Shown here: one piece after another, positions 1 to 26,029 of the stretch | How the letters are laid out: every line of letters starts with the position of its first letter | Numbering within the stretch: position 1 is the stretch's first letter | Origin: Eledone cirrhosa | Lineage: Eukaryota | Direction: 5' to 3' | DNA: 64,000 nt | NCBI GenBank assembly: GCA_964016885.1 | Contig: OZ024742.1 | Span: forward strand, 168,206,001 to 168,270,000 | Notes under the pieces: model-generated | The model's input: the letters and a program-made list of their open reading frames with translations, nothing else | Told to the model about the DNA's origin: nothing | Databases searched by the model: none | Translations under genes and position numbers: made by a program

Positions 1-854
1 AAAAGAAACATTAAAACAGCATTTAAAAAATCCATTGAAAAAATCCATTTAAAAAAATCCATTAAAAAATCCATTAAAAATCCATTAAAAATCCATTAAA
101 AATCCATTAAAAATTCATTAAAAAATCCATTTAAAAAACCCATTAAAAAAACCATTTAAAAAATCCATTAAAAAAAATACATTTAAAAAAACCCATTAAA
201 AAAAATCCATTAAAAATCCATTAAAAAAAATCCATTTAAAAAAAATTCATTAAAAAATCCATTAAAAATCCATTAAAAATCCATTAAAAATCCATTAAAA
301 ATCCATTAAAAATCCATTAAAAAATCCATTTAAAAAACCCATTAAAAAAAGCATTAAAAAATCCATTTAAAAAATCCATTAAAAAAAATCCATTTAAAAC
401 AACCCATTAAAAAAAATCCATTAAAAAAAACCCATTAAAAAAATCCATTAAAAAAATCCATTTAAAAAATCCATTAAAAAAAATCCATTAAAAAAAATCC
501 ATAAAAAAATCCATAAAAAAAATCCATTAAAAATCCATTAAAAAAATCCATTAAAAATCCATTAAAAAAAATCCATTTAAAAAAGCCATTAAAAAATCCA
601 TTAAAAATCCATTAAAAATCCATTAAAAAACCCATTAAAAAATCCATTTAAAAATCCATTAAAAAAATCCATTAAAAAAATCCATTTAAAAAAACCCATT
701 AAAAAAAATCCATTAAAAAAATCCATTAGAAAATCCATTAAAAAAATCCATTAAAAAAAATCGATAAAAAAAATCCATTAAAAAAAATCCATTAAAAAAA
801 ATCCGTTAAAAAAAATCCATTAAAAAAAAATCCGTTAAAAAAAATCCATTAAAA

Positions 855-939
855 GCTCAATCAAAAACCCATTAAAAACGCCATAAAAAATCATTAAAAT
901 CCCATTAAAGATACATTAAAGGCCCATTAAAAACGCCAT
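855..939 (+). repeat. G-type cassette (representative): GCTCAATCAAAAACCCATTAAAAACGCCATAAAAAATCATTAAAATCCCATT...GGCCCATTAAAAACGCCAT
   Basis: Recurs near 6277, 8561, 23961, 33247, 35230, 39496, 40473, 44074, 45884, 50123, 51117, 57145, 61651 and 62646. It never carries the inverted insert. Confidence 0.9.
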
Positions 940-972
940 AAAAAATCCATTAAAAAAATCCATTAAAAAAAA

Positions 973-1013
973 CTCAATCAAAAACCCATAAAAGAAACAT
1001 TAAAACAGCATTT
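973..1013 (+). repeat. Short cassette (representative): CTCAATCAAAAACCCATAAAAGAAACATTAAAACAGCATTT
   Basis: This 41-bp string, with a TTCAATC variant, recurs dozens of times through the window. Confidence 0.93.
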
Positions 1014-1384
1014 AAAAAATCCATTAAAAATCCATTAAAAAAATCCATTTAAAAAACCCATTAAAAAAAATCCATAAAAAAAAAACTCAATCAAAAACCC
1101 ATAAAAGAAACATTAAAACAGCATTTTAAAAATCCATTAAAAAAATCCATTAAAAAAAATCCATTAAAAAAATCCATTAAAAAAAACCCATTAAAAAAAA
1201 TCCATTTAAAAAATCCATTTAAAAAATCCATTAAAAAAAGTCCATTAAAAAAAATCCATAAAAAAATGCATTAAAAAAATCCATTAAAAAAATCCATTAA
1301 AAAAAATCCATTAAAAATCCATTAAAAAAATCCATTTAAAAAAATCCATTAAAAAAAAATCCGTTAAAAAAAATCCATTAAAAA

Positions 1385-1514
1385 CTCAATCAAAAACCCA
1401 ATTAAAAGGCCATAAAAGAAACATTAAAACAGCATTTAAAATACCATTAAAAACGCCATAAAAAATCATTAAAATCCCATTAAAAATACATTAAAGGCCC
1501 ATTAAAAACGCCAT
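1385..1514 (+). repeat. Long cassette, empty-site form (no inverted insert)
   Basis: CTCAATC-A5-CCCAATT-A4-GGCCAT-A4-GAAACATT-A4-CAGCATTT-A4-TACCATT-A5-CGCCAT-A6-TCATT-A4-TCCCATT...; other empty copies start at 5508, 41003, 51623, 51827, 57686, 57890, 63176 and 63380. Confidence 0.92.
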
Positions 1515-2020
1515 AAAAAATCCATTAAAAAAAACTCAATCAAAAACCCATAAAAGAAACATTAAAACAGCATTTAAAAAACCCATTAAAAATTCATTAA
1601 AAAAATCCATTTAAAAAATCCATTAAAAATCCATTAAAAATCCATTAAAAATCCATTAAAAATCCAATAAAAATTCATTAAAAAATCCATTTAAAAAAAT
1701 CCATTAAAAAAATCCATTAAAAAATCCATTTAAAAAATCCATTTAAAAAATCCATAAAAAAATCCATTAAAAAAATCCATTAAAAATCCATTAAAAATCC
1801 ATTAAAAAATCCATTAAAAAAACCCATTTAAAAAATCCAAAAAAATCCATTTAAAAAATCCATTAAAAAAAATCCATTTAAAAAAACCCATTAAAAAAAA
1901 TCCATTAAAAAAATCCATTTAAAAAATCCATTTAAAAAAATCCATTAAAAAAATCCATAAAAAAAATCCATTAAAAAAAATCCATTAAAAAAAAATCCGT
2001 TAAAGAAAATCCATTAAAAA

Positions 2021-2224
2021 CTCAATCAAAAACCCAATTAAAAGGCCATAAAAGAAACATTAAAACAGCATTTAAAATACCATTAAAAACGCCATAAAAA
2101 ATCATTAAAATTGTTTTTTATGAAATTTATAATATGGCTTTTAATGAACTTTTTAATGGGCTTTTAGAATCATTAAAATCCCATTAAAAATACATTAAAG
2201 GCCCATTAAAAACGCCATAAAAAA
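2021..2224 (+). repeat. Long cassette, filled form (57-bp inverted insert plus 11-bp duplication)
   Basis: Same as the empty form except for 68 extra bp at the AATCATTAAAA site. Confidence 0.93.
2111..2167 (-). repeat. 57-bp inverted satellite-like insert, copy 1 (C allele)
   Basis: TTGTTTTTTATGAAATTTATAATATGGCTTTTAATGAACTTTTTAATGGGCTTTTAG, flanked by AATCATTAAAA at 2100-2110 and 2168-2178. Confidence 0.95.
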
Positions 2225-4070
2225 TCCATTAAAAAAAATCCATTAAAAAAAAATTCAATCAAAAACCCATAAAAGAAACATTAAAACAGCATTTAAAAAA
2301 CCCATAAAAAATTCATTAAAAAAATCCATTTAAAAAATCCATTAAAAATCCATTAAAAATCCATTAAAAATCCATTAAAAAATCCATTTAAAAAACCCAT
2401 TAAAAAAATCCATTAAAAAAATCCATTTAAAAATCCATTAAAAAAAATCCATTTAAAAAAACCCATTAAAAAAAGTCCATTAAAAAATCCATTTAAAAAA
2501 TCCATAAAAAAAAATCCATAAAAAAAATCCATTAAAAAAAATCCATTAAAAAAAAAATCCGTTAAAAAAAATCCATTAAAAATCCCTTAAAAATCCATTA
2601 AAAATCCATTAAAAATCCATTAAAAATCCATTAAAAATCCATTTAAAAAAATCCATTAAAAAAATCCATTAAAAAAATCCATTAAAAAAATCCATTAAAA
2701 AAAATCCATTAAAAAAAAATCCATTAAAAAAAATCCATTAAAAAAAATCAATTTAAAAAAATCCATTAAAAAATCCATTAAAAAAGTCCATAAAAATCCA
2801 TTAAAAAAATCCATTTAAAAAAATCCATTTAAAAATCCATTAAAAACCCATTAAAAATCCATTAAAAATCCATTAAAAATCCATTAAAAAATCCATTAAA
2901 AAAATCCATTTAAAAAACCCATAAAAGAAACATTAAAACAGCATTTAAAAAACCCATTAAAAATTCATTAAAAAAATCCATTTGAAAAATCCATTAAAAA
3001 TCCATTAAAAATCCATTAAAAATCCATTAAAAATCCATTTGAAAAAATCCATTAAAAAAATCCATTAAAAAATCCATTTAAAAAATCCATTAAAAAAAAT
3101 CCATTAATAAAAACTCAATCAAAAACCCATAAAAGAAACATTAAAACAACATTTAAAAAATCCATTAAAAAAATCCATTTAAAAAAATCCATTAAAAAAT
3201 ATATTAAAAATCCATTAAAAATCCATTAAAAATCCATTAAAAATCATTAAAAATCCATTAAAAATACATTAAAAATCCATTAAAAAATCCATTTAAAAAA
3301 ATCAATTAAAAAAATCCATTAAAAAAAATCCATTAAAAAAAAATCCATTAAAAAAAAATCCATTAAAAAAAATCAATTAAAAAAAATCCATTAAAAATCC
3401 ATTAAAAAATCCATTAAAAACCCATTAAAAATCCATTAAAAATCCATTAAAAATCCATTTAAAAAACCCATTAAAAAAAATCCATTAAAATAATCCATTT
3501 AAAAAATCTATTTAAAAAAATCCATTAAAAAAAACCCATTAAAAAAAAATCCATTAAAAAAATCCATTTAAAAATCCATTTAAAAAAATCCATTAAAAAA
3601 ATTCATTAAAAAAATAACATTTAAAAAATCCATTAAAAAAAATCCATTAAAAAAAACTCAATCAAAAACCCATAAAAGAAACATTAAAACAGCATTTAAA
3701 AAATCCATTAAAAAAATCCATTTAAAAAAATCCATTAAAAAATCCATTAAAAAATCCATTAAAAATCCATTAAAAATCCATTAAAAATCCATTAAAAATC
3801 CATTAAAAATCCATTAAAAATCCATTAAAAAATCCAATTAAAAAAATCCATTAAAAAAATCCATTAAAAAATCCATTTAAAAAATCCATTAAAAAAAATC
3901 CATTAAAAAAAATCCATTAAAAAAAATCCATTAAAAAAAATCCATTAAAAAAAAAATCCGTAAAAAAAATCCATTAAAAACTCAATCAAAAACCCAATTA
4001 AAAGGCCTTAAAAGAAACATTAAAACAGCATTTAAAATACCATTAAAAATGCCATAAAAAATCATTAAAA

Positions 4071-4127
4071 TTGTTTTTTATGAAATTTATAATATGGCTG
4101 TTAATGAACTTTTTAATGGGCTTTTAG
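4071..4127 (-). repeat. 57-bp inverted insert, copy 2 (C allele, private T>G at 4100)
   Basis: Same string, with GGCTGTTAATG. Confidence 0.93.
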
Positions 4128-5802
4128 AATCATTAAAATCCCATTAAAAATACATTAAAGGCCCATTAAAAACGCCATAAAAAATCCATTAAAAAAAATC
4201 CATTAAAAAAAAATTCAATCAAAAACCCATAAAAGAAACATTAAAACGGCATTTAAAAAACCCATTAAAAATTCATTAAAAAAATCCATTTAAAAAATCC
4301 ATTAAAAATCCATTAAAAATCCATTAAAAATCCATTAAAAATACATTAAAAATCCATTAAAAAAAATCCATTAAAAAAATCCATTAAAAAATCCATTTAA
4401 AAAATCCATTAAAAAAAATCCATTAAAAAAAACTCAATCAAAAACCCATAAAAGAAACATTAAAACAGCATTTAAAAAATCCATTAAAAAAAATCCATTT
4501 AAAAAAATCCATTAAAAAAGCCATTAAAAATCCATTAAAAATCCATTAAAAATCCATTAAAAATCCATTAAAAATCCATTAAAAAATCCATCTAAAAAAA
4601 TCCATTAAAAAAATCCATTAAAAAAATTCATTTAAAAAATCCATTAAAAAAATCCATTTAAAAAATCCATTAAAAAAAATCCATTAAAAAAAATCCATAA
4701 AAAAATCCAATAAAAAAAATCCATTAAAAAAAATCCGTTAAAAAAAATCCATTAAAAATCCATTAAAAATCCATTCAAAATCCATTAAAAATCCATTAAA
4801 AATCCATTAAAAATCCATTAAAAATCCATTAAAAAATCCATTTAAAAAAATCCATTAAAAAATTCATTTAAAAAATCCATTTAAAAAATCCATTAAAAAA
4901 AATCCATTAAAAAAAACTCAATCAAAAACCCATAAAAGAAACATTAAAACAGCATTTAAAAAATCCATTAAAAAAATCCATTTAAAAAAATCCATTAAAA
5001 AATCCATTAAAAAATCCATTAAAAATCCATTAAAAATACATTAAAAATCCATTAAAAATTCATTAAAAAATCCATTTAAAAAAATCCATTAAAAAAATCC
5101 ATTAAAAAATCCATTTAAAAAATCCATTAAAAAAAATCCATTAAAAAAAATCCATAAAAAAATCCATTAAAAAAATCCATTAAAAAATCCATTAAAAAAA
5201 AATCCATTAAAAATCCATTAAAAAAATCCATTTAAAAAATCCATTTAAAAATCCATTAAAAATCCATTAAAAATCCATTAAAAATCCATTAAAAAATCCA
5301 TTAAAAAAACCCATTTAAAAAATCCAAAAAAATCCATTTAAAAAATCCATTAAAAAAAATCCATTTAAAAAAACCCATTAAAAAAATCCATTAAAAAAAT
5401 CCATTTAAAAAATCCATTAAAAAAAATCCATTAAAAAAAATCCATAAAAAAAATCCATTAAAAAAAATCCATTAAAAAAAAATCCGTTAAAAAAAATCCA
5501 TTAAAAACTCAATCCAAAACCCAATTAAAAGGCCATAAAAGAAACATTAAAACAGCATTTAAAATACCATTAAAAACGCCATAAAAAATCATTAAAATCC
5601 CATTAAAAATACATTAAAGGCCCATTAAAAACGCCATAAAAAATCCATTAAAAAAAATCCATTAAAAAAAATCCATTAAAAAAAAAATCCGTTAAAAAAA
5701 ATCCATTAAAAACTCAATCAAAAACCCAATTAAAAGGCCATAAAAGAAACATTAAAACAGCATTTAAAATACCATTAAAAACGCCATAAAAAATCATTAA
5801 AA

Positions 5803-5859
5803 TTGTTTTTTATGAAATTTATAATATGGCTTTTAATGAACTTTTTAATGGGCTTTTAG
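5803..5859 (-). repeat. 57-bp inverted insert, copy 3 (C allele)
   Basis: Same string as copy 1. Confidence 0.93.
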
Positions 5860-8047
5860 AATCATTAAAATCCCATTAAAAATACATTAAAGGCCCATTA
5901 AAAACGCCATAAAAAATCCATTAAAAAAAATCCATTAAAAAAAAATTCAATCAAAAACCCATAAAAGAAACATTAAAACAGCATTTAAAAAACCCATTAA
6001 AAATTCATTAAAAAAATCCATTTAAAAAATCCATTAAAAATCCATTAAAAATCCATTAAAAATCCATTAAAAATACATTAAAAATCCATTAAAAAAAATC
6101 CATTAAAAAAATCCATTTAAAAAAATCCATTAAAAACCCATTAAAAATCCATTAAAAAATCCATTTAAAAACCCATTAAAAAAAATCCATTAAAAAATAC
6201 ATTTAAAAAATCCATTAAAAAAAAATCCATTTAAAAAATCCATTAAAAAAAATCCATTAAAAAAAATCCATTAAAAGCTCAATCAAAAACCCATTAAAAA
6301 CGCCATAAAAAATCATTAAAATCCCATTAAAAATACATTAAAGGCCCATTAAAAACGCCATAAAAAATCCATTGAAAAAATCCATTAAAAAAAAACTCAA
6401 TCAAAAACCCATAAAAGAAACATTAAAACAGTATTTAAAAAATCCATTGAAAAAATCCATTTAAAAAAATCCATTAAAAAATCCATTAAAAATCCATTAA
6501 AAATCCATTAAAAATCCATTAAAAATTCATTAAAAAATCCATTTAAAAAACCCATTAAAAAAACCATTTAAAAAATCCATTAAAAAAAATACATTTAAAA
6601 AAACCCATTAAAAAAAATCCATTAAAAATCCATTAAAAAAAATCCATTTAAAAAAAATTCATTAAAAAATCCATTAAAAATCCATTAAAAATCCATTAAA
6701 AATCCATTAAAAATCCATTAAAAATCCATTAAAAATCCATTAAAAATCCATTAAAAAATCCATTTAAAAAACCCATTAAAAAAAGCATTAAAAAATCCAT
6801 TTAAAAAATCCATTAAAAAAAATCCATTTAAAACAACCCATTAAAAAAAATCCATTCAAAAAAACCCATTAAAAAAAATCCATTAAAAAAATCCATTTAA
6901 AAAATCCATTAAAAAAAATCCATTAAAAAAAATCCATAAAAAAATCCATTAAAAAAATCCATTAAAAATCCATTAAAAATCCATTAAAAATCCATTAAAA
7001 ATCCATTTAAAAAAATCCATTAAAAAAATCCATTAAAAAAATCCATTTAAAAAATCCATTAAAAAAAATCCATTAAAAAAAAATCCATTAAAAAAAATCC
7101 ATTAAAAAAAATCAATTTAAAAAAATCCATTAAAAATCCATTAAAAAAATCCATTTAAAAAAATTCATTAAAAACCCATTAAAAATCCATTAAAAATCCA
7201 TTAAAAAATCCATTTAAAAAACCCATAAAAAAAAATCCATTAAAAAAATCCATTAAAAAAAAATCCATTTAAAAAAAACCCATTGAAAAAATCCATTAAA
7301 AAAATCCATTTAAAAAATCCATTAAAAAAATCCATTAAAAAAAACTAAATCAAAAACCCATAAAAGAAACATTAAAACAGCATTTAAAAAATCCATTAAA
7401 AATCCATTAAAAAAATCCATTTAAAAAATCCATTAAAAAATCCATTAAAAATCCATTAAAAATCCATTAAAAAATACATTTAAAAAAATCCATTAAAAAA
7501 ATCCATTTAAAAAATCCATTAAAAAATCCATTTAAAAAATCCATTAAAAAAAATCCATTAAAAAAACCATTAAAAAATCCATTAAAAAAAATCCCATTAA
7601 AAATACATTAAAGGCCCATTAAAAACGCCATAAAAAATCCATTAAAAAAATCCATTAAAAAAAAACTCAATCAAAAACCCATAAAAGAAACATTAAAACA
7701 GCATTTAAAAAACCCATTAAAAATTCATTAAAAAAAATCCATTTAAAAAATCCATTAAAAAATACATTAAAAATCCATTTAAAATCCATTAAAAATCCAT
7801 TAAAAAATCCAATTAAAAAAATCCATTAAAAAAATCCATTAAAAAATCCATTTAAAAAATCCATTAAAAAAAATCCATTAAAAAAAATCCATTAAAAAAA
7901 AATCCATTAAAAAAAATCCATTAAAAAAAAAATCCGTTAAAAAAAATCCATTAAAAACTCAATCAAAAACCCAATTAAAAGGCCATAAAAGAAACATTAA
8001 AACAGCATTTAAAATACCATTAAAAACGCCATAAAAAATCATTAAAA

Positions 8048-8104
8048 TTGTTTTTTATGAAATTTATAATATGGCTTTTAATGAACTTTTTAATGGGCTT
8101 TTAG
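8048..8104 (-). repeat. 57-bp inverted insert, copy 4 (C allele)
   Basis: Same string as copy 1. Confidence 0.93.
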
Positions 8105-9571
8105 AATCATTAAAATCCCATTAAAAATACATTAAAGGCCCATTAAAAACGCCATAAAAAATCCATTAAAAAAAATCCATTAAAAAAAATTCAATCAAAA
8201 ACCCATAAAAGAAACATTAAATCAGCATTTAAAAAATCCATTAAAAATTCATTAAAAAAATCCATTTAAAAAATCCATTAAAAATCCATTAAAAATCCAT
8301 TAAAAATCCATTAAAAATACATTAAAAATCCTTTAAAAAAAATCCATTAAAAAAATCCATTTAAAAAAATCCATTAAAAACCCATTAAAAATCCATTAAA
8401 AAATCCATTTAAAAACCCATTTAAAAAAATCCATTAAAAAAATACATTTAAAAAATCCATTAAAAAAAATCCATTTAAAAAACCCATTAAAAAAAATCCA
8501 TTAAAAAAATCCATTTAAAAAATCCATTAAAAAAAATCCATTAAAAAAAATGCATTAAAAGCTCAATCAAAAACCCATTAAAAACGCCATAAAAAATCAT
8601 TAAAATCCCATTAAAAATACATTAAAGGCCCATTAAAAACGCCATAAAAAATCCATTGAAAAAATCCATTAAAAAAAAACTCAATCAAAAACCCATAAAA
8701 GAAACATTAAAACATCATTTAAAAATCCATTAAAAATCCATTAAAAATCCATTAAAAATCCATTAAAAATTCATTAAAAAATCCATTTAAAAAACCCATT
8801 AAAAAAACCATTTAAAAAATCCACTAAAAAAAATCCATTTAAAAAAACCCATTAAAAAAAATCCATTAAAAATCCATTAAAAAAAATCCATTTAAAAAAA
8901 TTCATTAAAAAATCCATTAAAAATCCATTAAAAATCCATTAAAAATCCATTAAAAATCCATTAAAAAATCCATTTAAAAAACCCATTAAAAAAAGCCATT
9001 AAAAAATCCATTTAAAAAATCCATTAAAAAAAATCCATTTAAAACAACCCATTAAAAAAAATCCATTAAAAAAAAACCCATTAAAAAAAATCCATTAAAA
9101 ATCCATTTAAAAAATCCATTAAAAAAATCCATTAAAAAAAATCCATAAAAAAATCCATTAAAAAAATCCATTAAAAATCCATTAAAAAAATCCATTAAAA
9201 AAAATTCATTAAAAACCCATTAAAAATCCATTTAAAAAACCCATTAAAAAATCCATTAAAAATCCATTAAAAATCCATTTAAATCCATTAAAAAACCCAT
9301 TAAAAAAATCCATTTAAAAAATCCATTAAAAAAAATCCATTTAAAAAAACCCATTAAAAAAATCCATTAAAAAATCCATTTAAAAAATTCATTAAAAAAA
9401 ATCCATTAAAAAAATCCATAAAAAAAATCCATTAAAAAAAATCCATTAAAAAAAAATCCGTTAAAAAAAATCCATTAAAAACTCAATCAAAAACCCAATT
9501 AAAAGGCCATAAAAGAAACATTAAAACAGCATTTAAAATACCATTAAAAACGCCATAAAAAATCATTAAAA

Positions 9572-9628
9572 TTGTTTTTTATGAAATTTATAATATGGCT
9601 TTTAATGAATTTTTTAATGGGCTTTTAG
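9572..9628 (-). repeat. 57-bp inverted insert, copy 5 (T allele)
   Basis: GAATTTTTTAATGGG in place of GAACTTTTTAATGGG. Confidence 0.93.
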
Positions 9629-11221
9629 AATCATTAAAATCCCATTAAAAATACATTAAAGGCCCATTAAAAACGCCATAAAAAATCCATTAAAAAAATC
9701 CATTAAAAAAAAACTCAATCAAAAACCCATAAAAGAAACATTAAAACAGCATTTAAAAAATCCATTAAAAATCCATTAAAAAAAAATCCATAAAAAAATC
9801 CATTAAAAATCCATTAAAAAATCCATTTAAAAAAATCGATTAAAAAATCCATTAAAAACCCATTAAAAATCCATTAAAAATCCATTAAAAATCCATTAAA
9901 AAATCCATTTAAAAAACCCATTAAAAAAATCCATTAAAAAATCCATTTAAAAATCCATTAAAAAAATCCATTTAAAAAAACCCATTAAAAAAAATCCATT
10001 AAAAAAATCCATTTAAAAAATCCATAAAAAAAATCCATAAAAAAAATCCATTAAAAAAAATCCATTAAAAAAAAAATCCGTTAAAAAAAATCCATTAAAA
10101 ATCCATTAAAAATCCATTAAAAATCCATTAAAAATCCATTAAAAATCCATTTAAAAAAATCCATTAAAAAAATCCATTAAAAAAATCCATTTAAAAAATC
10201 CATTAAAAAAAATCCATTAAAAAAAAATCCATTAAAAAAAATCCATTAAAAATCCATTAAAAAAATCCATTAAAAAAAATCCATTAAAAACCCATTAAAA
10301 ATCCATTAAAAATCCATTAAAAAATCCATTTAAAAAAACCATTAAAAAAATCCATTAAAAAAATCCATTTAAAAAATCCATTAAAAAAAAATCCATTAAA
10401 AAAAACCCATTAAAAAAAATCCATTAAAAAAATCCATTTAAAAAATCCATTAAAAAAAATCCATTAAAAAAAACTCAATCAAAAACCCATAAAAGAAACA
10501 TTAAAACAGCATTTAAAAAATCCATTAAAAATCCATTAAAAAAATCCATTTAAAAAATCCATTAAAAAATCCATTAAAAATCCATTAAAAATCCATTAAA
10601 AAATCCATTTAAAAAAATCCATTAAAAAAATCCATTTAAAAAATCCATTAAAAAATCCATTTAAAAAATCCATTAAAAAAAATCCATTAAAAAAAAACAT
10701 TAAAAAATCCATTAAAAAAAATCCCATTAAAAATACATTAAAGGCCCATTAAAAACGCCATAAAAAATCCATTAAAAAAATCCATTAAAAAAAAACTCAA
10801 TCAAAAACCCATAAAAGAAACATTAAAACAGCATTTAAAAAATCCATTAAAAAAATCCATTTAAAAAAATCCATTAAAAAATCCATTAAAAATCCATTAA
10901 AAATCCATTAAAAATCCATTAAAAATCCATTAAAAAATCCATTAAAAATCCATTAAAAATCCATTAAAAATCCATTAAAAAATCCATTTAAAAAAATCCA
11001 TTAAAAAAATCCATTAAAAAATCCATTTAAAAAATCCATTTAAAAAAATCCATTAAAAAAAATCCATTAAAAAAAAATCCATTAAAAAAAATCCATTAAA
11101 AAAAAATCCGTTAAAAAAAATCCATTAAAAACTCAATCAAACACCCAATTAAAAGGCCATAAAAGAAACATTAAAACAGCATTTAAAATACCATTAAAAA
11201 CGCCATAAAAAATCATTAAAA

Positions 11222-11278
11222 TTGTTTTTTATGAAATTTATAATATGGCTTTTAATGAACTTTTTAATGGGCTTTTAG
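11222..11278 (-). repeat. 57-bp inverted insert, copy 6 (C allele)
   Basis: Same string as copy 1; the upstream cassette has the CAAACACCC variant. Confidence 0.93.
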
Positions 11279-12389
11279 AATCATTAAAATCCCATTAAAA
11301 ATACATTAAAGGCCCATTAAAAACGCCATAAAAAATCCATTAAAAAAAATCCATTAAAAAAAAATTCAATCAAAAACCCATAAAAGAAACATTAAAACAG
11401 CATTTAAAAAACCCATTAAAAATTCATTAAAAAAATCCATTTAAAAAATCCATTAAAAATCCATTAAAAATCCATTAAAAATCCATTAAAAATCCATTAA
11501 AAATAATCCATTAAAAAAAAATTCAATCAAAAACCCATAAAAGAAACATTAAAACAGCATTTAAAAATCCATTAAAAAAAATCCATTTAAAAAAATCCAT
11601 TAAAAAAGCCATTAAAAATCCATTAAAAATCCATTAAAAAAATCCATTAAAAAAAAATCCATTAAAAAAAATCCATTAAAAATCCATTAAAAAAATCCAT
11701 TTAAAAAAATCCATTAAAAAATCCATTAAAAATCCATTAAAAATCCATTAAAAAATCCATTTAAAAAACCCATTAAAAAAATCCATTTAAAAAATCCATT
11801 TAAAAAATCCATTAAAAAAAATCCATTTAAAAAAACCCATTAAAAAAAATCCATTAAGAAAATCCATTTAAAAAATCCATTAAAAAAAATCCATTAAAAA
11901 AAATCCATAAAAAAAAATCCATTAAAAAAAATCCATTAAAAAAAAAATCCGTTAAAAAAAATCCATTAAAAAAAAATCCGTTAAAAAAATCCATTAAAAG
12001 CTCAATCCCATTAAAAACGCCATAAAAATCATTAAAATCCAATTAAAGATACATTAAAGGCCCATTAAAAACGCCATAAAAAATCCATTAAAAAAATCCA
12101 TTAAAAAAAACTCAATCAAAAACCCATAAAAGAAACATTAAAACAGCATTTAAAAAATCCATTAAAAATCCATTAAAAAAATCCATTTAATAAAATCCAT
12201 TAAAAAATCCATTAAAAATCCATTAAAAATCCATTAAAAATCCATTAAAAATCCATTAAAAATCCATTAAAAAAATCCATTAAAAAAATCCATTAAAAAA
12301 AGCCATTAAAAAAATCCATTAAAAAAAGCCATTAAAAAAATCCATTAAAAAAAAATCCATTAAAAATCCATTAAAAAAATCCATTAAAA

Positions 12390-13310
12390 ACCCATTAAAA
12401 ATCCATTAAAAAATCCATTAAAAAACCCATTAAAAAAAATCCATTAAAAAAATCCATTTAAAAAATCCATTTAAAAAAAATCCATTTAAAAAACCCATTA
12501 AAAAAAATCCATTAAAAAAATCCATTTAAAAAAATCCATTAAAAAAATCCATTAAAAAAATCCATTTAAAAAATCCATAAAAAAAACCCATTAAAAAAAA
12601 TCCATTAAAAAAAAAATCCATTAAAAAAAATCCATTAAAAAAAATCCATTAAAAATCCATTAAAAAAAATCCATTTAAAAAAAATTCATTAAAAAATCCA
12701 TTAAAAATCCATTAAAAATCCATTTAAAAAAATCCATTTAAAAAATCCATTTAAAAAACCCATTACAAAAAATACATTAAAAAAAATCCATAAAAAAAAA
12801 ATCCATTAAAAAAAATCCATTAAAAAAAATCTATTAAAAATCCATTAAAAATCCATTAAAAATCCATTAAAAATCCATTAAAAATCCATTAAAAATCCAT
12901 TAAAATTCATTAAAAATCCATTAAAAATCCATTAAAAAATCCATTTAAAAAAATCCATTAAAAAATCCATTAAAAAATCCATTTAAAAAATCCATTAAAA
13001 AAATCCATTAAAAAAAAATCCATTAAAAAAAAAATCCATTAAAAAAAATCAATTTAAAAAAATCCATTAAAAATCCATTAAAAAAATCCATTTAAAAAAA
13101 TCCATTAAAAACCCATTAAAAACCCATTAAAAATCCATTAAAAATCCATTTAAAAAACCCATTTAAAAAAATCCATTAAAAAAAATCCATTTAAAAAATC
13201 CATTAAAAAAAATCCATTAAAAAAACCCATTAAAAAAATCCATTAAAAAAATCCATTTAAAAAATTCATTAAAAAAAATTCATTAAAAAAAATCCATAAA
13301 AAAATCCATT
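12390..13310 (+). repeat. About 0.9 kb block duplicated at ~15865-16790 (offset ~3474)
   Basis: Shared rare markers CATTACAAAAAATACATT (12761 and 16235) and TCTATT, plus the same order of A-run lengths. Confidence 0.8.
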
Positions 13311-13635
13311 TAAAAAATCCATTAAAAAAAATCCATTTAAAACAACCCATTAAAAAAAATCCATTAAAAAAAACCCATTAAAAAAAATCCATTAAAAAAA
13401 TCCATTTAAAAAATCCATTAAAAAAATCCATTAAAAAAATCCATTTAAAAAATCCATTAAAAAAAATCCATTAAAAAAATCCATAAAAAAAATCCATTAA
13501 AAAAAATCCATTAAAAAAAAATCCGTTAAAAAAATCCATTAAAAACTCAATCAAAAACCCAATTAAAAGGCCATAAAAGAAACATTAAAACAGCATTTAA
13601 AATACCATTAAAAACGCCATAAAAAATCATTAAAA

Positions 13636-13692
13636 TTGTTTTTTATGAAATTTATAATATGGCTTTTAATGAATTTTTTAATGGGCTTTTAG
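13636..13692 (-). repeat. 57-bp inverted insert, copy 7 (T allele)
   Basis: T-allele string. Confidence 0.93.
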
Positions 13693-15134
13693 AATCATTA
13701 AAATCCCATTAAAAATACATTAAAGGCCCATTAAAAACGCCATAAAAAATCCATTAAAAAAATCCATTAAAAAAAAACTCAATCAAAAACCCATAAAAGA
13801 AACATTAAAACAGCATTTAAAAAATCCATTAAAAATCCATTAAAAAAAAATCCATTAACAAAATCCATTAAAAATCCATTAAAAAAATCCATTTAAAAAA
13901 ATCCATTAAAAAATCCATTAAAAACCCATTAAAAATCCATTAAAAATCCATTAAAAATCCATTAAAAAATCCATTTAAAAAACCCATTAAAAAAATCCAT
14001 TAAAAAATCCATTTAAAAATCCATTAAAAAAAATCCATTTAAAAAAACCCATTAAAAAAAATCCATTAAAAAAATCCATTTAAAAAATCCATAAAAAAAA
14101 ATCCATAAAAAAAATCCATTAAAAAAAATCCGTTAAAAAAAAAATCCGTTAAAAAAAATCCATTAAAAATCCATTAAAAATCCATTAAAAATCCATTAAA
14201 AATCCATTAAAAATCAATTTAAAAAAATCCATTAAAAAAATCCATTAAAAAAATCCATTTAAAAAATCCATTAAAAAAAATCCATTAAAAAAAATCCATT
14301 AAAAAAAATCCATTAAAAAAAATAAATTTAAAAAAATCCATTAAAAATCCATTAAAAAAATCCATTTAAAAAAATCCATTAAAAACCCATTAAAAATCCA
14401 TTAAAAATCCATTAAAAAATCCATTTAAAAAAACCATTAAAAAAAATCCATTAAAAAAATCCATTTAAAAAATCCATTAAAAAAAATCCATTAAAAAAAC
14501 CCATTAAAAAAAATCCATTAAAAAAATCCATTTAAAAAATCCATTAAAAAAAATCCATTAAAAAAATCCATTTAAAAAAATCCATTAAAAAAATCCATTT
14601 AAAAAATCCATTTAAAAATCCATTTAAAAAATCCATTAAAAAAAATCCATTAAAAAAAACCATTAAAAAATCCATTAAAAAAAATCCCATTAAAAATACA
14701 TTAAAGGCCCATTAAAAACGCCATAAAAAATCCATTAAAAAAATCCATTAAAAAAAAACTCAATCAAAAACCCATAAAAGAAACATTAAAACAGCATTTA
14801 AAAAATCCATTAAAAAAATCCATTTAAAAAAATCCATTAAAAAATCCATTAAAAATCCATTAAAAATCCATTAAAAAATCCATTAAAAATCCATTAAAAA
14901 TCCATTAAAAATCCATTAAAAAATCCATTTAAAAAAATCCATTAAAAAAATCCATTAAAAAATCCATTTAAAAAATCCATTTAAAAAAATCCATTAAAAA
15001 AAATCCATTAAAAAAAAAATCCGTTAAAAAAAATCCATTAAAAACTCAATCAAACACCCAATTAAAAGGCCATAAAAGAAACATTAAAACAGCATTTAAA
15101 ATACCATTAAAAACGCCATAAAAAATCATTAAAA

Positions 15135-15191
15135 TTGTTTTTTATGAAATTTATAATATGGCTTTTAATGAACTTTTTAATGGGCTTTTAG
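15135..15191 (-). repeat. 57-bp inverted insert, copy 8 (C allele)
   Basis: C-allele string; CAAACACCC upstream. Confidence 0.93.
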
Positions 15192-15762
15192 AATCATTAA
15201 AATCCCATTAAAAATACATTAAAGGCCCATTAAAAACGCCATAAAAAATCCATTAAAAAAAATCCATTAAAAAAAAATTCAATCAAAAACCCATAAAAGA
15301 AACATTAAAACAGCATTTAAAAAACCCATTAAAAATTCATTAAAAAAATCCATTTAAAAAATCCATTAAAAATCCATTAAAAATCCATTAAAAATCCATT
15401 AAAAATCCATTAAAAATCCATTAAAAATAATCCATTAAAAAAATATTCAATCAAAAACCCATAAAAGAAACATTAAAACAGCATTTAAAAAATCCATTAA
15501 AAAAAATCCATTTAAAAAAATCCATTAAAAAAGCCATTAAAAATCCATTAAAAATCCATTAAAAAATCCATTAAAAAAAAATCCATTAAAAAAAATCCAT
15601 TAAAAATCCATTAAAAAAATCCATTTAAAAAAATCCATTAAAAAAAAATCCGTTAAAAAAATCCATTAAAAACTCAATCAAAAACCCAATTAAAAGGCCA
15701 TAAAAGAAACATTAAAACAGCATTTAAAATACCATTAAAAACGCCATAAAAAATCATTAAAA

Positions 15763-15819
15763 TTGTTTTTTATGAAATTTATAATATGGCTTTTAATGAA
15801 TTTTTTAATGGGCTTTTAG
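15763..15819 (-). repeat. 57-bp inverted insert, copy 9 (T allele)
   Basis: T-allele string; the downstream cassette is truncated after GGCCCATT. Confidence 0.93.
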
Positions 15820-17348
15820 AATCATTAAAATCCCATTAAAAATACATTAAAGGCCCATTAAAAACCCATTAAAAATCCATTAAAAAATCCATTAAAAAAC
15901 CCATTAAAAAAAATCCATTAAAAAAATCCATTTAAAAAATCCATTTAAAAAAAATCCATTTAAAAAACCCATTAAAAAAAATCCATTAAAAAAATCCATT
16001 TAAAAAAATCCATTAAAAAAATCCATTAAAAAAATCCATTTAAAAAATCCATAAAAAAAACCCATTAAAAAAAATCCATTAAAAAAAAAATCCATTAAAA
16101 AAAATCCATTAAAAAAAATCCATTAAAAATCCATTAAAAAAAATCCATTTAAAAAAAATTCATTAAAAAATCCATTAAAAATCCATTAAAAATCCATTTA
16201 AAAAAATCCATTTAAAAAATCCATTTAAAAAACCCATTACAAAAAATACATTAAAAAAAATCCATAAAAAAAAAATCCATTAAAAAAAATCCATTAAAAA
16301 AAATCTATTAAAAATCCATTAAAAATCCATTAAAAATCCATTAAAAATCCATTAAAAATCCATTAAAAATCCATTAAAATTCATTAAAAATCCATTAAAA
16401 ATCCATTAAAAAATCCATTTAAAAAAATCCATTAAAAAATCCATTAAAAAATCCATTTAAAAAATCCATTAAAAAAATCCATTAAAAAAAAATCCATTAA
16501 AAAAAAAAATCCATTAAAAAAAATCAATTTAAAAAAATCCATTAAAAATCCATTAAAAAAATCCATTTAAAAAAATCCATTAAAAACCCATTAAAAACCC
16601 ATTAAAAATCCATTAAAAATCCATTTAAAAAACCCATTAAAAAAAATCCATTAAAAAAAATCCATTTAAAAAATCCATTAAAAAAAATCCATTAAAAAAA
16701 CCCATTAAAAAAATCCATTAAAAAAATCCATTTAAAAAATTCATTAAAAAAAATTCATTAAAAAAAAATCCATAAAAAAATCCATTAAAAAAATCCATTA
16801 AAAAAAATCCATTAAAAAAAATCCATTAAAAATCCATTAAAAAAATCCATTTAAAAAAATCCATTAAAAAATCCATTAAAAAACCCATTAAAAATCCATT
16901 AAAAATCCATTAAAAATCCATTAAAAATCCATTTAAAAAACCCATTTAAAAAATCCATTTAAAAAACCCATTAAAAAAAGCCATTAAAAAATCCATTTAA
17001 AAAATCCATTAAAAAAAATCCATTTAAAACAACCCATTAAAAAAAATCCATTAAAAAAAACCCATTAAAAAAAATCCATTAAAAAAATCCATTTAAAAAA
17101 TCCATTAAAAAAAATCCATAAAAAAATCCATTAAAAAAATCCATTAAAAAAATCCATTTAAAAAATCCATTAAAAAAAATCCATTAAAAAAATCCATAAA
17201 AAAAATCCATTAAAAAAAATCCATTAAAAAAAAATCCGTTAAAAAAATCCATTAAAAACTCAATCAAAAACCCAATTAAAAGGCCATAAAAGAAACATTA
17301 AAACAGCATTTAAAATACCATTAAAAACGCCATAAAAAATCATTAAAA

Positions 17349-17405
17349 TTGTTTTTTCTGAAATTTATAATATGGCTTTTAATGAATTTTTTAATGGGCT
17401 TTTAG
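17349..17405 (-). repeat. 57-bp inverted insert, copy 10 (T allele, private A>C at 17358)
   Basis: TTGTTTTTTCTG start. Confidence 0.93.
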
Positions 17406-18888
17406 AATCATTAAAATCCCATTAAAAATACATTAAAGGCCCATTAAAAACGCCATAAAAAATCCATTAAAAAAATCCATTAAAAAAAAACTCAATCAAA
17501 AACCCATAAAAGAAACATTAAAACAGCATTTAAAAAATCCATTAAAAATCCATTAAAAAAAAATCCATTAACAAAATCCATTAAAAATCCATTAAAAAAA
17601 TCCATTTAAAAAAATCCATTAAAAAATCCATTAAAAACCCATTAAAAATCCATTAAAAATCCATTAAAAATCCATTAAAAAATCCATTTAAAAAACCCAT
17701 TAAAAAAATCCATTAAAAAATCCATTTAAAAATCCATTAAAAAAAATCCATTTAAAAAAACCCATTAAAAAAAATCCATTAAAAAAATCCATTTAAAAAA
17801 TCCATAAAAAAAAATCCATAAAAAAAATCCATTAAAAAAAATCCGTTAAAAAAAAAATCCGTTAAATAAAATCCATTAAAAATCCATTAAAAATCCATTA
17901 AAAATCCATTAAAAATCCATTAAAAATCAATTTAAAAAAATCCATTAAAAAAATCCATTAAAAAAATCCATTTAAAAAATCCATTAAAAAAAATCCATTA
18001 AAAAAAATCCATTAAAAAAAATCCATTAAAAAAAATAAATTTAAAAAAATCCATTAAAAATCCATTAAAAAAATCCATTTAAAAAAATCCATTAAAAACC
18101 CATTAAAAATCCATTAAAAATCCATTAAAAAATCCATTTAAAAAAACCATTAAAAAAAATCCATTAAAAAAATCCATTTAAAAAATCCATTAAAAAAAAT
18201 CCATTAAAAAAACCCATTAAAAAAAATCCATTAAAAAAATCCATTTAAAAAATCCATTAAAAAAAATCCATTAAAAAAATCCATTTAAAAAAATCCATTA
18301 AAAAAATCCATTTAAAAAATCCATTTAAAAATCCATTTAAAAAATCCATTAAAAAAAATCCATTAAAAAAAACCATTAAAAAATCCATTAAAAAAAATCC
18401 CATTAAAAATACATTAAAGGCCCATTAAAAACGCCATAAAAAATCCATTAAAAAAATCCATTAAAAATCCATTTAAAAAACCCATTTAAAAAATCCATTT
18501 AAAAAACCCATTAAAAAAAGCCATTAAAAAATCCATTTAAAAAATCCATTAAAAAAAATCCATTTAAAACAACCCATTAAAAAAAATCCATTAAAAAAAA
18601 CCCATTAAAAAAAATCCATTAAAAAAATCCATTTAAAAAATCCATTAAAAAAAATCCATAAAAAAATCCATTAAAAAAATCCATTAAAAAAATCCATTTA
18701 AAAAATCCATTAAAAAAAATCCATTAAAAAAATCCATAAAAAAAATCCATTAAAAAAAATCCATTAAAAAAAAATCCGTTAAAAAAATCCATTAAAAACT
18801 CAATCAAAAACCCAATTAAAAGGCCATAAAAGAAACATTAAAACAGCATTTAAAATACCATTAAAAACGCCATAAAAAATCATTAAAA

Positions 18889-18945
18889 TTGTTTTTTATG
18901 AAATTTATAATATGGCTTTTAATGAATTTTTTAATAGGCTTTTAG
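18889..18945 (-). repeat. 57-bp inverted insert, copy 11 (T allele, private G>A at 18936)
   Basis: TTAATAGGCT. Confidence 0.93.
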
Positions 18946-20409
18946 AATCATTAAAATCCCATTAAAAATACATTAAAGGCCCATTAAAAACGCCATAAAA
19001 AATCCATTAAAAAAATCCATTAAAAAAAAACTCAATCAAAAACCCATAAAAGAAACATTAAAACAGCATTTAAAAAATCCATTAAAAATCCATTAAAAAA
19101 AAATCCATTAACAAAATCCATTAAAAATCCATTAAAAAAATCCATTTAAAAAAATCCATTAAAAAATCCATTAAAAACCCATTAAAAATCCATTAAAAAT
19201 CCATTAAAAATCCATTAAAAAATCCATTTAAAAAACCCATTAAAAAAATCCATTAAAAAATCCATTTAAAAATCCATTAAAAAAAATCCATTTAAAAAAA
19301 CCCATTAAAAAAAATCCATTAAAAAAATCCATTTAAAAAATCCATAAAAAAAAATCCATAAAAAAAATCCATTAAAAAAAATCCGTTAAAAAAAAAATCC
19401 GTTAAAAAAAATCCATTAAAAATCCATTAAAAATCCATTAAAAATCCATTAAAAATCCATTAAAAATCCATTAAAAATCCATTAAAAATCAATTTAAAAA
19501 AATCCATTAAAAAAATCCATTAAAAAAATCCATTTAAAAAATCCATTAAAAAAAATCCATTAAAAAAAATCCATTAAAAAAAATCCATTAAAAAAAATAA
19601 ATTTAAAAAAATCCATTAAAAATCCATTAAAAAAATCCATTTAAAAAAATCCATTAAAAACCCATTAAAAATCCATTAAAAATCCATTAAAAAATCCATT
19701 TAAAAAAACCATTAAAAAAAATCCATTAAAAAAATCCATTTAAAAAATCCATTAAAAAAAATCCATTAAAAAAACCCATTAAAAAAAATCCATTAAAAAA
19801 ATCCATTTAAAAAATCCATTAAAAAAAATCCATTAAAAAAATCCATTTAAAAAAATCCATTAAAAAAATCCATTTAAAAAATCCATTTAAAAATCCATTT
19901 AAAAAATCCATTAAAAAAAATCCATTAAAAAAAACCATTAAAAAATCCATTAAAAAAAATCCCATTAAAAATACATTAAAGGCCCATTAAAAACGCCATA
20001 AAAAATCCATTAAAAAAATCCATTAAAAAAAAACTCAATCAAAAACCCATAAAAGAAACATTAAAACAGCATTTAAAAAATCCATTAAAAAAATCCATTT
20101 AAAAAAATCCATTAAAAAATCCATTAAAAATCCATTAAAAATCCATTAAAAAATCCATTAAAAATCCATTAAAAATCCATTAAAAATCCATTAAAAAATC
20201 CATTTAAAAAAATCCATTAAAAAAATCCATTAAAAAATCCATTTAAAAAATCCATTTAAAAAAATCCATTAAAAAAAATCCATTAAAAAAAAAATCCGTT
20301 AAAAAAAATCCATTAAAAACTCAATCAAACACCCAATTAAAAGGCCATAAAAGAAACATTAAAACAGCATTTAAAATACCATTAAAAACGCCATAAAAAA
20401 TCATTAAAA

Positions 20410-20466
20410 TTGTTTTTTATGAAATTTATAATATGGCTTTTAATGAACTTTTTAATGGGCTTTTAG
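20410..20466 (-). repeat. 57-bp inverted insert, copy 12 (C allele)
   Basis: C-allele string; CAAACACCC upstream. Confidence 0.93.
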
Positions 20467-21025
20467 AATCATTAAAATCCCATTAAAAATACATTAAAGG
20501 CCCATTAAAAACGCCATAAAAAATCCATTAAAAAAAATCCATTAAAAAAAAATTCAATCAAAAACCCATAAAAGAAACATTAAAACAGCATTTAAAAAAC
20601 CCATTAAAAATTCATTAAAAAAATCCATTTAAAAAATCCATTAAAAATCCATTAAAAATCCATTAAAAATCCATTAAAAATCCATTAAAAATCCATTAAA
20701 AATAATCCATTAAAAAAAAATTCAATCAAAAACCCATAAAAGAAACATTAAAACAGCATTTAAAAAATCCATTAAAAAAAATCCATTTAAAAAAATCCAT
20801 TAAAAAAGCCATTAAAAATCCATTAAAAATCCATTAAAAAAATCCATTAAAAAAAAATCCATTAAAAAAAATCCATTAAAAATCCATTAAAAAAATCCAT
20901 TTAAAAAAATCCATTAAAAAAAAATCCATTAAAAACTCAATCAAAAACCCAATTAAAAGGCCATAAAAGAAACATTAAAACAGCATTTAAAATACCATTA
21001 AAAACGCCATAAAAAATCATTAAAA

Positions 21026-21082
21026 TTGTTTTTTATGAAATTTATAATATGGCTTTTAATGAATTTTTTAATGGGCTTTTAG
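21026..21082 (-). repeat. 57-bp inverted insert, copy 13 (T allele)
   Basis: T-allele string. Confidence 0.93.
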
Positions 21083-22553
21083 AATCATTAAAATCCCATT
21101 AAAAATACATTAAAGGCCCATTAAAAACGCCATAAAAAATCCATTAAAAAAATCCATTAAAAAAAAACTCAATCAAAAACCCATAAAAGAAACATTAAAA
21201 CAGCATTTAAAAAATCCATTAAAAATCCATTAAAAAAAAATCCATTAACAAAATCCATTAAAAATCCATTAAAAAAATCCATTTAAAAAAATCCATTAAA
21301 AAATCCATTAAAAACCCATTAAAAATCCATTAAAAATCCATTAAAAATCCATTAAAAAATCCATTTAAAAAACCCATTAAAAAAATCCATTAAAAAATCC
21401 ATTTAAAAATCCATTAAAAAAATCCATTTAAAAAACCCATTAAAAAAAATCCATTAAAAAAATCCATTTAAAAAATCCATAAAAAAAAATCCATAAAAAA
21501 AATCCATTAAAAAAAATCCGTTAAAAAAAAAATCCGTTAAAAAAAATCCATTAAAAATCCATTAAAAATCCATTAAAAATCCATTAAAAATCCATTAAAA
21601 ATCAATTTAAAAAAATCCATTAAAAAAATCCATTAAAAAAATCCATTTAAAAAATCCATTTAAAAAAATCCATTAAAAAAAATCCATTAAAAAAATCCAT
21701 TAAAAAAAAATCCATTAAAAAAAATCCATTAAAAATCCATTAAAAAAATCCATTTAAAAAAATCCATTAAAAAATCCATTAAAAATCCATTAAAAATCCA
21801 TTAAAAAATCCATTTAAAAAACCCATTAAAAAAAATCCATTAAAAAAATCCATTTAAAAAATCCATTAAAAAAAATCCATTAAAAAAAACCCATTAAAAA
21901 AAATCCATTAAAAAAATCCATTTAAAAAATCCATTAAAAAAAATCCATTAAAAAAATCCATTTAAAAAAATCCATTAAAAAAATCCATTTAAAAAATCCA
22001 TTAAAAAATCCATTTAAAAAATCCATTAAAAAAAATCCATTAAAAAAAACCATTAAAAAATCCATTAAAAAAAATCCCATTAAAAATACATTAAAGGCCC
22101 ATTAAAAACGCCATAAAAAATCCATTAAAAAAATCCATTAAAAAAAAACTCAATCAAAAACCCATAAAAGAAACATTAAAACAGCATTTAAAAAATCCAT
22201 TAAAAAAATCCATTTAAAAAAATCCATTAAAAAATCCATTAAAAATCCATTAAAAATCCATTAAAAAATCCATTAAAAATCCATTAAAAATCCATTAAAA
22301 ATCCATTAAAAAATCCATTTAAAAAAATCCATTAAAAAAATCCATTAAAAAATCCATTTAAAAAATCCATTTAAAAAAATCCATTAAAAAAAATCCATTA
22401 AAAAAAAATCCATTAAAAAAAATCCATTAAAAAAAAAATCCGTTAAAAAAAATCCATTAAAAACTCAATCAAACACCCAATTAAAAGGCCATAAAAGAAA
22501 CATTAAAACAGCATTTAAAATACCATTAAAAACGCCATAAAAAATCATTAAAA

Positions 22554-22610
22554 TTGTTTTTTATGAAATTTATAATATGGCTTTTAATGAACTTTTTAAT
22601 GGGCTTTTAG
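22554..22610 (-). repeat. 57-bp inverted insert, copy 14 (C allele)
   Basis: C-allele string; CAAACACCC upstream. Confidence 0.93.
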
Positions 22611-24504: not shown

Positions 24505-24680
24505 TCTATTAAAAATCCATTAAAAATCAATTAAAAATCCATTAAAAATCCATTAAAAATCCATTAAAAATCCATTAAAAATCCATTAAAAATCCATTAA
24601 AAATCCATTAAAAATCCATTAAAAATCCATTAAAAATCCATTAAAAATCCATTAAAAATCCATTAAAAATCCATTAAAAA
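24505..24680 (+). repeat. Pure 11-bp run (TCCATTAAAAA)x16, the last 13 perfect
   Basis: Units start every 11 bp from 24505; two units carry substitutions (TCTATT, TCAATT). Confidence 0.9.
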
Positions 24681-25972: not shown

Positions 25973-26029
25973 TTGTTTTTTATGAAATTTATAATATGGC
26001 TTTTAATGAATTTTTTAATGGGCTTTTAG
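25973..26029 (-). repeat. 57-bp inverted insert, copy 15 (T allele), in a 5'-truncated cassette
   Basis: Preceded only by CGCCATAAAAAATCATTAAAA, which is joined directly to plain 11-mers. Confidence 0.93.

What the first reader, a model, noticed from the sequence alone, without database searches (positions are those of the whole stretch)
2100..2178. 57-bp inverted satellite-like insert with an 11-bp flanking duplication; filled and empty sites coexist
Seen: this is the only opposite-polarity sequence I found in 64 kb. Its reverse complement (CTAAAAGCCCATTAAAAAGTTCATTAAAAGCCATATTATAAATTTCATAAAAAACAA) reads as diverged satellite monomers, but I did not see that exact string in forward orientation. 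It always sits between two copies of AATCATTAAAA, while empty cassettes have one copy. I count 26 filled copies and 9 empty long cassettes, always at the same site. Inference: a single templated inversion-insertion (template switching or polymerase-theta-type end joining) later amplified with the array. Alternatively, the empty sites arose by deletion between the 11-bp repeats. The periodic, highly conserved box could act as a protein-binding or structural landmark, analogous in role only to the CENP-B box.
Basis: partly seen in the sequence, partly recalled or inferred. Interest (0 to 1): 0.75.

Follow-up and report, generated by a model that had tools for sequence, protein, structure and literature searches.

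The report
Copied DNA patch amplified in satellite
A 57-base piece that reads backwards in this repetitive DNA is an exact copy of part of a larger parent repeat found elsewhere in the same genome; it was likely pasted in once during DNA repair and then likely multiplied passively to about 300 copies, so it is a good marker of how the array grew rather than a functional signal.

Summary
In detail: 26 filled and 9 long empty sites in the window, plus 20 short empty sites. The direct repeat is 12 bp, not 11. The donor was found. The exact 57-mer lies inside an already reversed tract of a 6.1-kb composite repeat (about 125 copies, seen on C2, C4 and C469), and that repeat also carries the empty target cassette. 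So empty is ancestral, and no inversion was needed at insertion. On C2 a donor lies 473 bp from an empty cassette whose flanks match the inferred founder. All 290 exact right junctions and all 258 exact left junctions in the genome fall in one 758-kb array on C3 (293 filled copies). Junctions show 3-bp microhomology and a 12-bp duplication, like a repair-mediated duplication. Against function: no more conserved than its flanks (P=0.62), irregular spacing, absent from the array's last 67 kb, and nearly absent from one of three other samples' reads. Main rival: two successive deletions. An earlier scan note describes a similar capture in another satellite of this genome. Verdict: ordinary mechanism, unusually complete fossil record.

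The parts
1..64000 (+). AATCCATT-A(n) satellite (11-13 bp monomers); part of a 758-kb array, G000:C3:167,989,129-168,746,924, whose 3' end meets a 200-N scaffold gap
2021..2099 (+). Upstream part of the variant-monomer cassette; the same sequence lies in the forward tract of the 6.1-kb parent unit
2100..2111 (+). Left copy of the 12-bp direct repeat; its last 3 bases (2109-2111) are shared with the donor (microhomology)
2112..2167 (-).
2168..2179 (+). Right copy of the 12-bp direct repeat; no microhomology with the donor at this junction
2136..2203 (.). Predicted imperfect hairpin across the right junction (27 pairs, 7-nt loop, about -18 kcal/mol with DNA parameters); only marginally stronger than simulated random insertions
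2180..2290 (+). Downstream part of the cassette; its first ~35 bp are shared with the parent unit, the rest is a rearranged order seen in the C3 array and the C2 proto-array
4060..61253 (+). 25 further filled sites, left repeat starting at 4060, 5792, 8037, 9561, 11211, 13625, 15124, 15752, 17338, 18878, 20399, 21015, 22543, 25962, 27460, 28750, 39033, 41718, 49646, 52542, 54113, 55580, 58592, 59907, 61174
1464..63470 (+). 9 long empty sites (1464, 5587, 41082, 51702, 51906, 57765, 57969, 63255, 63459)
889..62691 (+).

Best explanation
The insert is an exact copy of a piece of a 6.1-kb parent repeat that was likely captured once as a DNA-repair patch and then likely carried passively as the satellite array expanded. 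Steps: (1) shown: the parent unit holds the empty cassette and, 2.8 kb on, a reversed tract that begins with the 57-mer; (2) shown as present-day states, order inferred: one monomer and the cassette expanded into a simple satellite, leaving remnants in which donor and empty target lie 473 and 1,168 bp apart on the same strand; (3) inferred: a staggered break or stalled fork at the 12-bp box primed on the donor by 3-bp microhomology, copied 56 bases and rejoined bluntly, duplicating 12 bp (synthesis-dependent patch repair or template switch; enzyme unknown); (4) inferred: unequal exchange and segmental duplication spread the filled cassette to 293 copies, with two later point variants and one secondary loss amplified the same way. 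It is most likely neutral.
For: Donor: 22 of 28 sampled parent copies carry the exact 57-mer without the direct repeats (context); the donor-type continuation occurs 117 times and a unique parent 31-mer 128 times. Polarity: parent cassettes are empty and two C2 empties have the flank haplotype inferred for the filled founder on both sides. Single origin: 290 of 290 right-junction and 258 of 258 left-junction matches lie in the C3 array, all forward; no other right context among those tested. The commonest allele (172 of 293) equals the donor. Junction class microhomology + duplication without a poly(A) tail was seen in 3 of 39 proximal repair-mediated duplications (PMC2671141 section 7). Neutrality: 12 alleles in 57 bp against 28 in 107 bp of flank, P=0.62; irregular spacing; none in the last 67 kb; a roughly 430-kb sister array on C2 showed none in the stretches sampled; at most 3 of about 40 reads in X7 against 29 and 50 junction reads in X8 and X9.
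Against: One 374-nt contig from run X5 (organism B) joins the left junction to 254 nt of donor continuation, the half-way form that a two-step origin predicts; it was not returned and may be a graph chimera. No parent copy is listed on C3, so donor proximity at the time of the event is inferred from the C2 remnant. The right junction has no microhomology. The conservation test has only 40 alleles and cannot exclude weak constraint. The right-junction hairpin lies in the strongest 3-5% of simulated right junctions (8-9% allowing either junction in two of three nulls).
Confidence: 0.62

Rival explanations
1. Two deletions in a tandem of parent-derived units: first the cassette box was joined to the reversed tract through the 3-bp microhomology, later the tract was cut back to 56 bp and joined to the box of the next cassette. 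The 12-bp 'duplication' would then be two boxes from two neighbouring cassettes. Later amplification is passive as in the main reading.
For: X5 contig with left junction plus donor continuation and no X5 depth over 2171-2200. Donor and cassette alternate on one strand in the parent tandem and the C2 remnant. Pairing of the insert's 3' half with the downstream monomers could guide the second cut (inference).
Against: No half-way form in G000: 258 of 258 left junctions are in the C3 array. Both cuts must fall within 12 bp of the same cassette position (a few per cent by chance in a 0.7-kb unit; my estimate). X5 also has a donor-left contig ending at the shared stretch, so a de Bruijn chimera is plausible; the tool warns that holes prove nothing.
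Confidence: 0.2
2. RNA-templated insertion: a LINE enzyme nicked the box and reverse-transcribed 56 bases of a transcript of the parent repeat, primed internally by 3 bases, giving a 12-bp target-site duplication.
For: A 12-bp duplication, priming microhomology at one end and a blunt other end are compatible with target-primed reverse transcription (established knowledge); class 1 TSIPs have duplications of 5 bp or more (PMC5110952 passages).
Against: No untemplated poly(A) tail: the A-rich end is present in the donor. The duplication boundaries do not match a 5'-TTTT/A cut (sequence). In PMC2671141 none of 39 proximal cases had a tail.
Confidence: 0.1
3. A functional landmark: the insert binds a protein, or its hairpin forms a cruciform that favours centromeric chromatin or array expansion, and was selected.
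For: It is the only source of dyad symmetry in 758 kb; predicted hairpin -18 kcal/mol against -1.8 for the empty site; dyad symmetries have been proposed to matter at centromeres (PMC13081366 passages, which also say this is untested there).
Against: No excess conservation; irregular spacing; the sister C2 array reached about 430 kb without it in the parts sampled; nearly absent in X7; random reversed fragments give -12 +/- 3.5 kcal/mol; no CpG and no CENP-B core motif.
Confidence: 0.06
4. A tiny mobile element (MITE or SINE-like) that targets the 12-bp box repeatedly.
For: Filled and empty sites with a flanking duplication.
Against: No terminal inverted repeat (0 of the first 10 bases); an internal fragment of a longer tract; one target, one array, one orientation; shared derived alleles show descent by copying.
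Confidence: 0.02

Closest known systems
Repair-mediated duplications (Pace, Sen, Batzer, Feschotte 2009; PMC2671141; abstract and sections 6-7 read)
   Same: Insertion of 50 bp or more that interrupts a repeat, copied from a retained donor; microhomology 2-9 nt, duplication 4-21 nt, no poly(A) tail; donors mostly within 5 kb, as in the C2 remnant (473 bp) and parent unit (2.8 kb).
   Different: Those are single-copy vertebrate events in transposons. Here donor and target are both repeats, the product was amplified to 293 copies, and no donor is listed on the product's contig.
Templated sequence insertion polymorphisms, TSIPs (PMC5110952; abstract and passages read)
   Same: Short insert templated from elsewhere; appears polymorphic among samples; useful as a marker.
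   Different: Has a duplication like class 1 but lacks its tail and preferred cut site; class 2 lacks duplications.
Small tandem duplications at breaks with 3' overhangs, incl. the TD+ class (PMC8355091; passages read) and Pol-theta templated insertions (PMC12426944; passages read)
   Same: A 12-bp duplication with extra sequence and minimal microhomology fits repair of a staggered break.
   Different: Pol-theta insertions are described as generally under 25 bp and copied from the break's flanks; this one is 56 bp from at least several hundred bases away.
Conserved inversion sites and dyad symmetries in Tribolium satellites (PMC13081366; abstract and passages read)
   Same: A rare reversed junction becomes numerous and near-identical (98-99% there) inside a satellite.
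   Different: There kb-long subarrays flip on all chromosomes; here a 56-bp patch sits in one unidirectional array.
CENP-B box (PMC12532704; passages read)
   Same: Only that a distinct motif recurs in a subset of satellite units.
   Different: 17-bp protein-bound motif kept across chromosomes and species; here no motif match, no excess conservation, one array.

Membership tests
Repair-mediated duplication (PMC2671141) | Insert of at least 50 bp interrupting a repeat, with an empty pre-insertion site | tested here: met
   56-59 bp; empty sites in the parent and at C2:245.158 Mb
Repair-mediated duplication (PMC2671141) | Identifiable donor that remains in place | tested here: met
   22 of 28 sampled parent copies exact; multi-copy donor, unlike the paper's single-donor filter
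Repair-mediated duplication (PMC2671141) | Microhomology, filler or deletion at junctions; no poly(A) tail | tested here: met
   3-bp microhomology left, none right, 12-bp duplication, no untemplated tail
Repair-mediated duplication (PMC2671141) | Donor within 5 kb of the acceptor | tested here: inconclusive
   True of donor and empty target on C2 (473, 1,168 bp); no parent listed on C3; both arrays end at gaps
Repair-mediated duplication (PMC2671141) | Both junctions made in one event | tested here: inconclusive
   No half-way form in G000; one possible half-way contig in X5, not returned
Pol-theta templated insertion | Generally under 25 bp, copied from the break's flanks | tested here: not met
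   56 bp; no template in the C3 array's forward strand in the window; size norm from PMC12426944
Pol-theta templated insertion | Dependence on POLQ | not testable with these tools
   Historic germ-line event
Class 1 TSIP / LINE-mediated insertion | Target-site duplication of 5 bp or more | tested here: met
   12 bp
Class 1 TSIP / LINE-mediated insertion | Untemplated poly(A) tail and 5'-TTTT/A cut site | tested here: not met
   All inserted bases are in the donor; duplication edges do not fit the site (sequence)
MITE | Terminal inverted repeats | tested here: not met
   0 of 10 terminal bases match
MITE | Independent insertions at many targets | tested here: not met
   All exact junctions in one array at one site
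CENP-B box | 17-bp motif with its CpG-containing core (core pattern recalled, not from a call) | tested here: not met
   0 hits in 758 kb on either strand; no CpG in the insert
CENP-B-box-like landmark (role only) | Conservation above flanks and regular spacing | tested here: not met
   P=0.62; CV 0.82
CENP-B-box-like landmark (role only) | Sequence-specific protein binding in centromeric chromatin | not testable with these tools
   No ChIP or footprint run among the 9 listed

The most novel reading that the evidence does not exclude
One repair patch gave a strictly one-directional satellite its only hairpin (27 pairs, every 1.8 kb or so), and that hairpin drove break-prone expansion of a 0.76-Mb array that is present in some individuals and missing in others: a satellite caught being born from a composite parent and spreading through a population.
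Probability: 0.07. Interest if true: 0.7.

Novelty: new member of a known kind. Interest (0 to 1): 0.3.

Why it matters
The mechanism class is known. What is uncommon is that donor, empty target, product, later variants, a secondary loss and an apparent carrier/non-carrier difference among samples are all visible. The two junctions are a unique tag for one megabase-scale satellite array, so its copy number, inheritance and growth can be followed by PCR or k-mer counting. It is also a caution: a near-invariant recurring box in a satellite can be a young passenger rather than a binding site.

Tried and rejected
Search for a forward-orientation template in the window: none. Other right-hand contexts of the insert's 3' half: 0 for the letter pairs covered; 5 of 122 non-C3 matches are not accounted for by the exact donor continuation and were not looked at. 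Dispersed fragments of the reversed tract: the 150 listed of 388 matches were all in parent clusters (37 of 792 candidates scored), so not exhaustive. Test that the C2 and C3 arrays are one array split at a gap: inconclusive; informative C2 words are shared most with C3's last 80 kb in most samples (2-9% against 0-5%), but the two ends are no more alike than background. Hairpin-guided origin: marginal and post hoc. Fisher tests on read counts used counts read off depth tables, and RAD fragments share cut sites, so I do not rely on those P values. No RNA holder listed. X6 (small share) aligned only in short pieces. Paper searches: monomer strings, cephalopod satellites, inverted monomers and template switching in assemblies, satellite plus templated insertion (6 papers listed, none by title or abstract start on a germ-line patch amplified in an array), reversed subunits: no description of this satellite in the listings; supplements were not opened. 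One search timed out. Earlier-findings look-ups near the place and by sequence were empty.

Full report
Observation. The window is a single AATCCATT-A(n) satellite of 11-13 bp monomers at G000:C3:168,206,001-168,270,000 in a 3.0-Gb genome. A scan for opposite-polarity words gave 26 clusters, all the insert, all at the same cassette position. There are 9 long and 20 short empty cassettes. The direct repeat is 12 bp. Spacing is irregular, 616-10,283 bp.

The donor. An exact 28-mer from the insert's left half occurs 385 times in the genome; 260 of these are in the C3 array. The first others listed lie on C2 with a 6.1-kb period. There the whole 57-mer is an inner part of a reversed tract of about 460 bp, 21 bp after the turning point of a composite unit: TA repeats, 3.3 kb of diverged forward monomers, reversed tract, TTTTA repeats, a unique piece, a second reversed tract. 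It has no direct repeats there. The donor continuation matches 117 times and a unique 31-mer of the unit 128 times; the first 100 listed of each are clusters on C2 and C4, none on C3, and adds C469. Of 28 sampled donor sites, 22 are exact, 2 have one change and 4 have an internal deletion. Identity between insert and donor extends 2 bases to the left and none to the right, so with the shared T the left junction has 3 bp of microhomology and the right has none.

Which state is older. The parent unit also contains the target cassette, empty, 2.8 kb before the donor on the same strand, differing mainly by one base in the box. At C2:245.158 Mb a cut-down unit is followed by simple satellite with two empty cassettes of exactly the C3 type, 473 and 1,168 bp from a donor. 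Their flanks match the haplotype of the donor-identical filled copies that lack later variants. So empty is ancestral, and the reversed orientation is inherited from the parent. A C4 unit shows the simple monomer expanding inside the forward tract, which suggests how the satellite arose (inference).

One origin. I fetched the whole C3 array (167,989,129-168,746,924). It holds 293 filled and 202 empty cassettes, 77 of them long. All 290 genome-wide matches to the right junction and all 258 to the left junction are in it. 172 copies equal the donor; two derived changes occur in 83 and 26 copies, each over a limited range. 22 long empties join an upstream variant otherwise found on filled copies to the downstream haplotype of a short-empty lineage, so they are likely one secondary loss that was then amplified.

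Function. Among 293 copies the insert has 12 distinct substitutions in 57 bp and the flanks 28 in 107 bp (P=0.62; diversity 0.012 against 0.007-0.009). The test is weak, and two flank alleles may be alignment effects of a short deletion, but it gives no sign of constraint. No filled copy occurs in the last 67 kb. A sister array on C2 (about 245.16-245.59 Mb) had no insert in the stretches sampled. No CENP-B core motif (recalled pattern) and no CpG were found. The right junction is predicted to fold into a 27-pair hairpin of -18 kcal/mol; simulated insertions of random reversed fragments average -12 to -13, and 3-5% reach the observed value at the right junction, 3-9% at either.

Other samples. 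Nine runs were listed, none on record as RNA. In three RAD runs of one study under the same species label, the right junction has 29 reads in X8 and 50 in X9. In X7, 37 of about 40 reads over the insert continue into the donor and no junction row is shown (5 rows hidden). X7 and X8 have similar numbers of reads skipping the insert (38 and 30), while X7 has about nine times fewer simple-monomer reads. The filled array is therefore real in other animals and probably much smaller or absent in one; RAD bias, duplicates or a mislabelled species could contribute. Against my main reading, run X5 (organism B) gave one contig with the exact left junction followed by 254 nt of donor. It did not reappear, where a donor-left contig ended at the shared stretch, so it may be a real half-way form or an assembly-graph chimera.

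Mechanism and comparison. A copy of 50 bp or more from a retained, nearby donor with microhomology and a short duplication and no tail is the microhomology + duplication class of repair-mediated duplications (3 of 39 proximal cases; PMC2671141 sections 6-7). Short duplications arise at staggered breaks (PMC8355091 passages). Pol-theta insertions are usually under 25 bp and local (PMC12426944 passages), so that enzyme is possible but not favoured. Class 1 TSIP features other than the duplication are missing (PMC5110952 passages). Numerous near-identical inversion junctions in satellites are known from Tribolium (PMC13081366 passages). I put one DNA-templated event at 0.62, two deletions at 0.2, RNA templating at 0.1, a selected landmark at 0.06 and a mobile element at 0.02.

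Context. The C3 array lies between a 9-bp satellite and, past a gap, a 24-bp satellite. Whether it is centromeric cannot be told. The genome is probably an octopod: a flank in L119 resembles an octopus SINE as I recall it (no call), and an earlier scan note names an octopus element; I did not test this. An earlier unreviewed note (e1-9871998) describes a similar passive capture in a different satellite of this genome. My searches listed no description of this satellite; supplements were not opened.

Verdict. Real, explained, and of a known kind; its value is as a complete record and a marker of satellite growth. Interest 0.3.

Noticed in passing
L002:2600-8800 (G000:C2:245.06-245.07 Mb) and clusters on C2 245.06-245.20, 248.3, 250.5-250.7 Mb; C4 140.04, 142.45, 204.7-205.4 Mb; C469: A 6.1-kb composite tandem unit (about 128 copies) with forward and reversed tracts of CCATTAAAA-like monomers, TTTTA and TA repeats and a palindromic TA/TG-rich piece; likely the parent of the simple satellite. 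Several clusters abut other large satellites.
   Followed up: partly
G000:C3:168,746,925 and G000:C2:245,585,924 (L137): The C3 array's 3' end and the C2 sister array's 5' end both stop at scaffold gaps, with the same 24-bp satellite beyond (directly on C3; by 245.60 Mb on C2). They may be one array split by scaffolding; the k-mer test was inconclusive.
   Followed up: partly
L004-L006 (G000:C2:245.158-245.207 Mb): Three islands of a cut-down parent unit, each with about 310 bp of reversed tract, embedded 21-24 kb apart in the simple satellite; all three end at the same junction.
   Followed up: partly
L038:1600-2350 and L118:4150-4560 (C4): The simple monomer is expanded locally inside single parent units, in L038 with part of the cassette duplicated: possible early stage of satellite birth.
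   Followed up: partly
run X7 on window:2021-2300: This sample has about nine times fewer simple-monomer reads than X8 and almost no filled junctions, but similar parent-type reads: possible large presence/absence variation of the array.
   Followed up: partly
L014-L015 and L120 (C3:167.90-167.989 Mb): A 9-bp AAAATTCCT/AAAATTCAT satellite of at least 89 kb joins the array directly, without a gap.
   Followed up: no
L033-L035, L102-L107, L109-L112: A 21-24-bp satellite with a TTATCTCCCC core fills megabases on C2 and follows the array on C3; its orientation differs between the blocks before 248.28 Mb and from 249.0 Mb on C2.
   Followed up: no
L113, L115-L118 (C4:140.0-142.5 Mb): A 7-bp AAGCACC/AAACACC satellite block with parent-unit clusters in it and a change of orientation; in L118 the parent's forward tract runs directly into it.
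   Followed up: no
L001:1-4400: A 227-bp GC-richer tandem repeat borders the C2 parent cluster.
   Followed up: no
L119:2000-2130: Sequence resembling an octopus SINE as recalled from memory; not tested.
   Followed up: no
window 51623-52030, 57686-58090, 63176-63580: Tandem 204-bp duplications of the long empty cassette; 3-copy runs occur elsewhere in the array.
   Followed up: no
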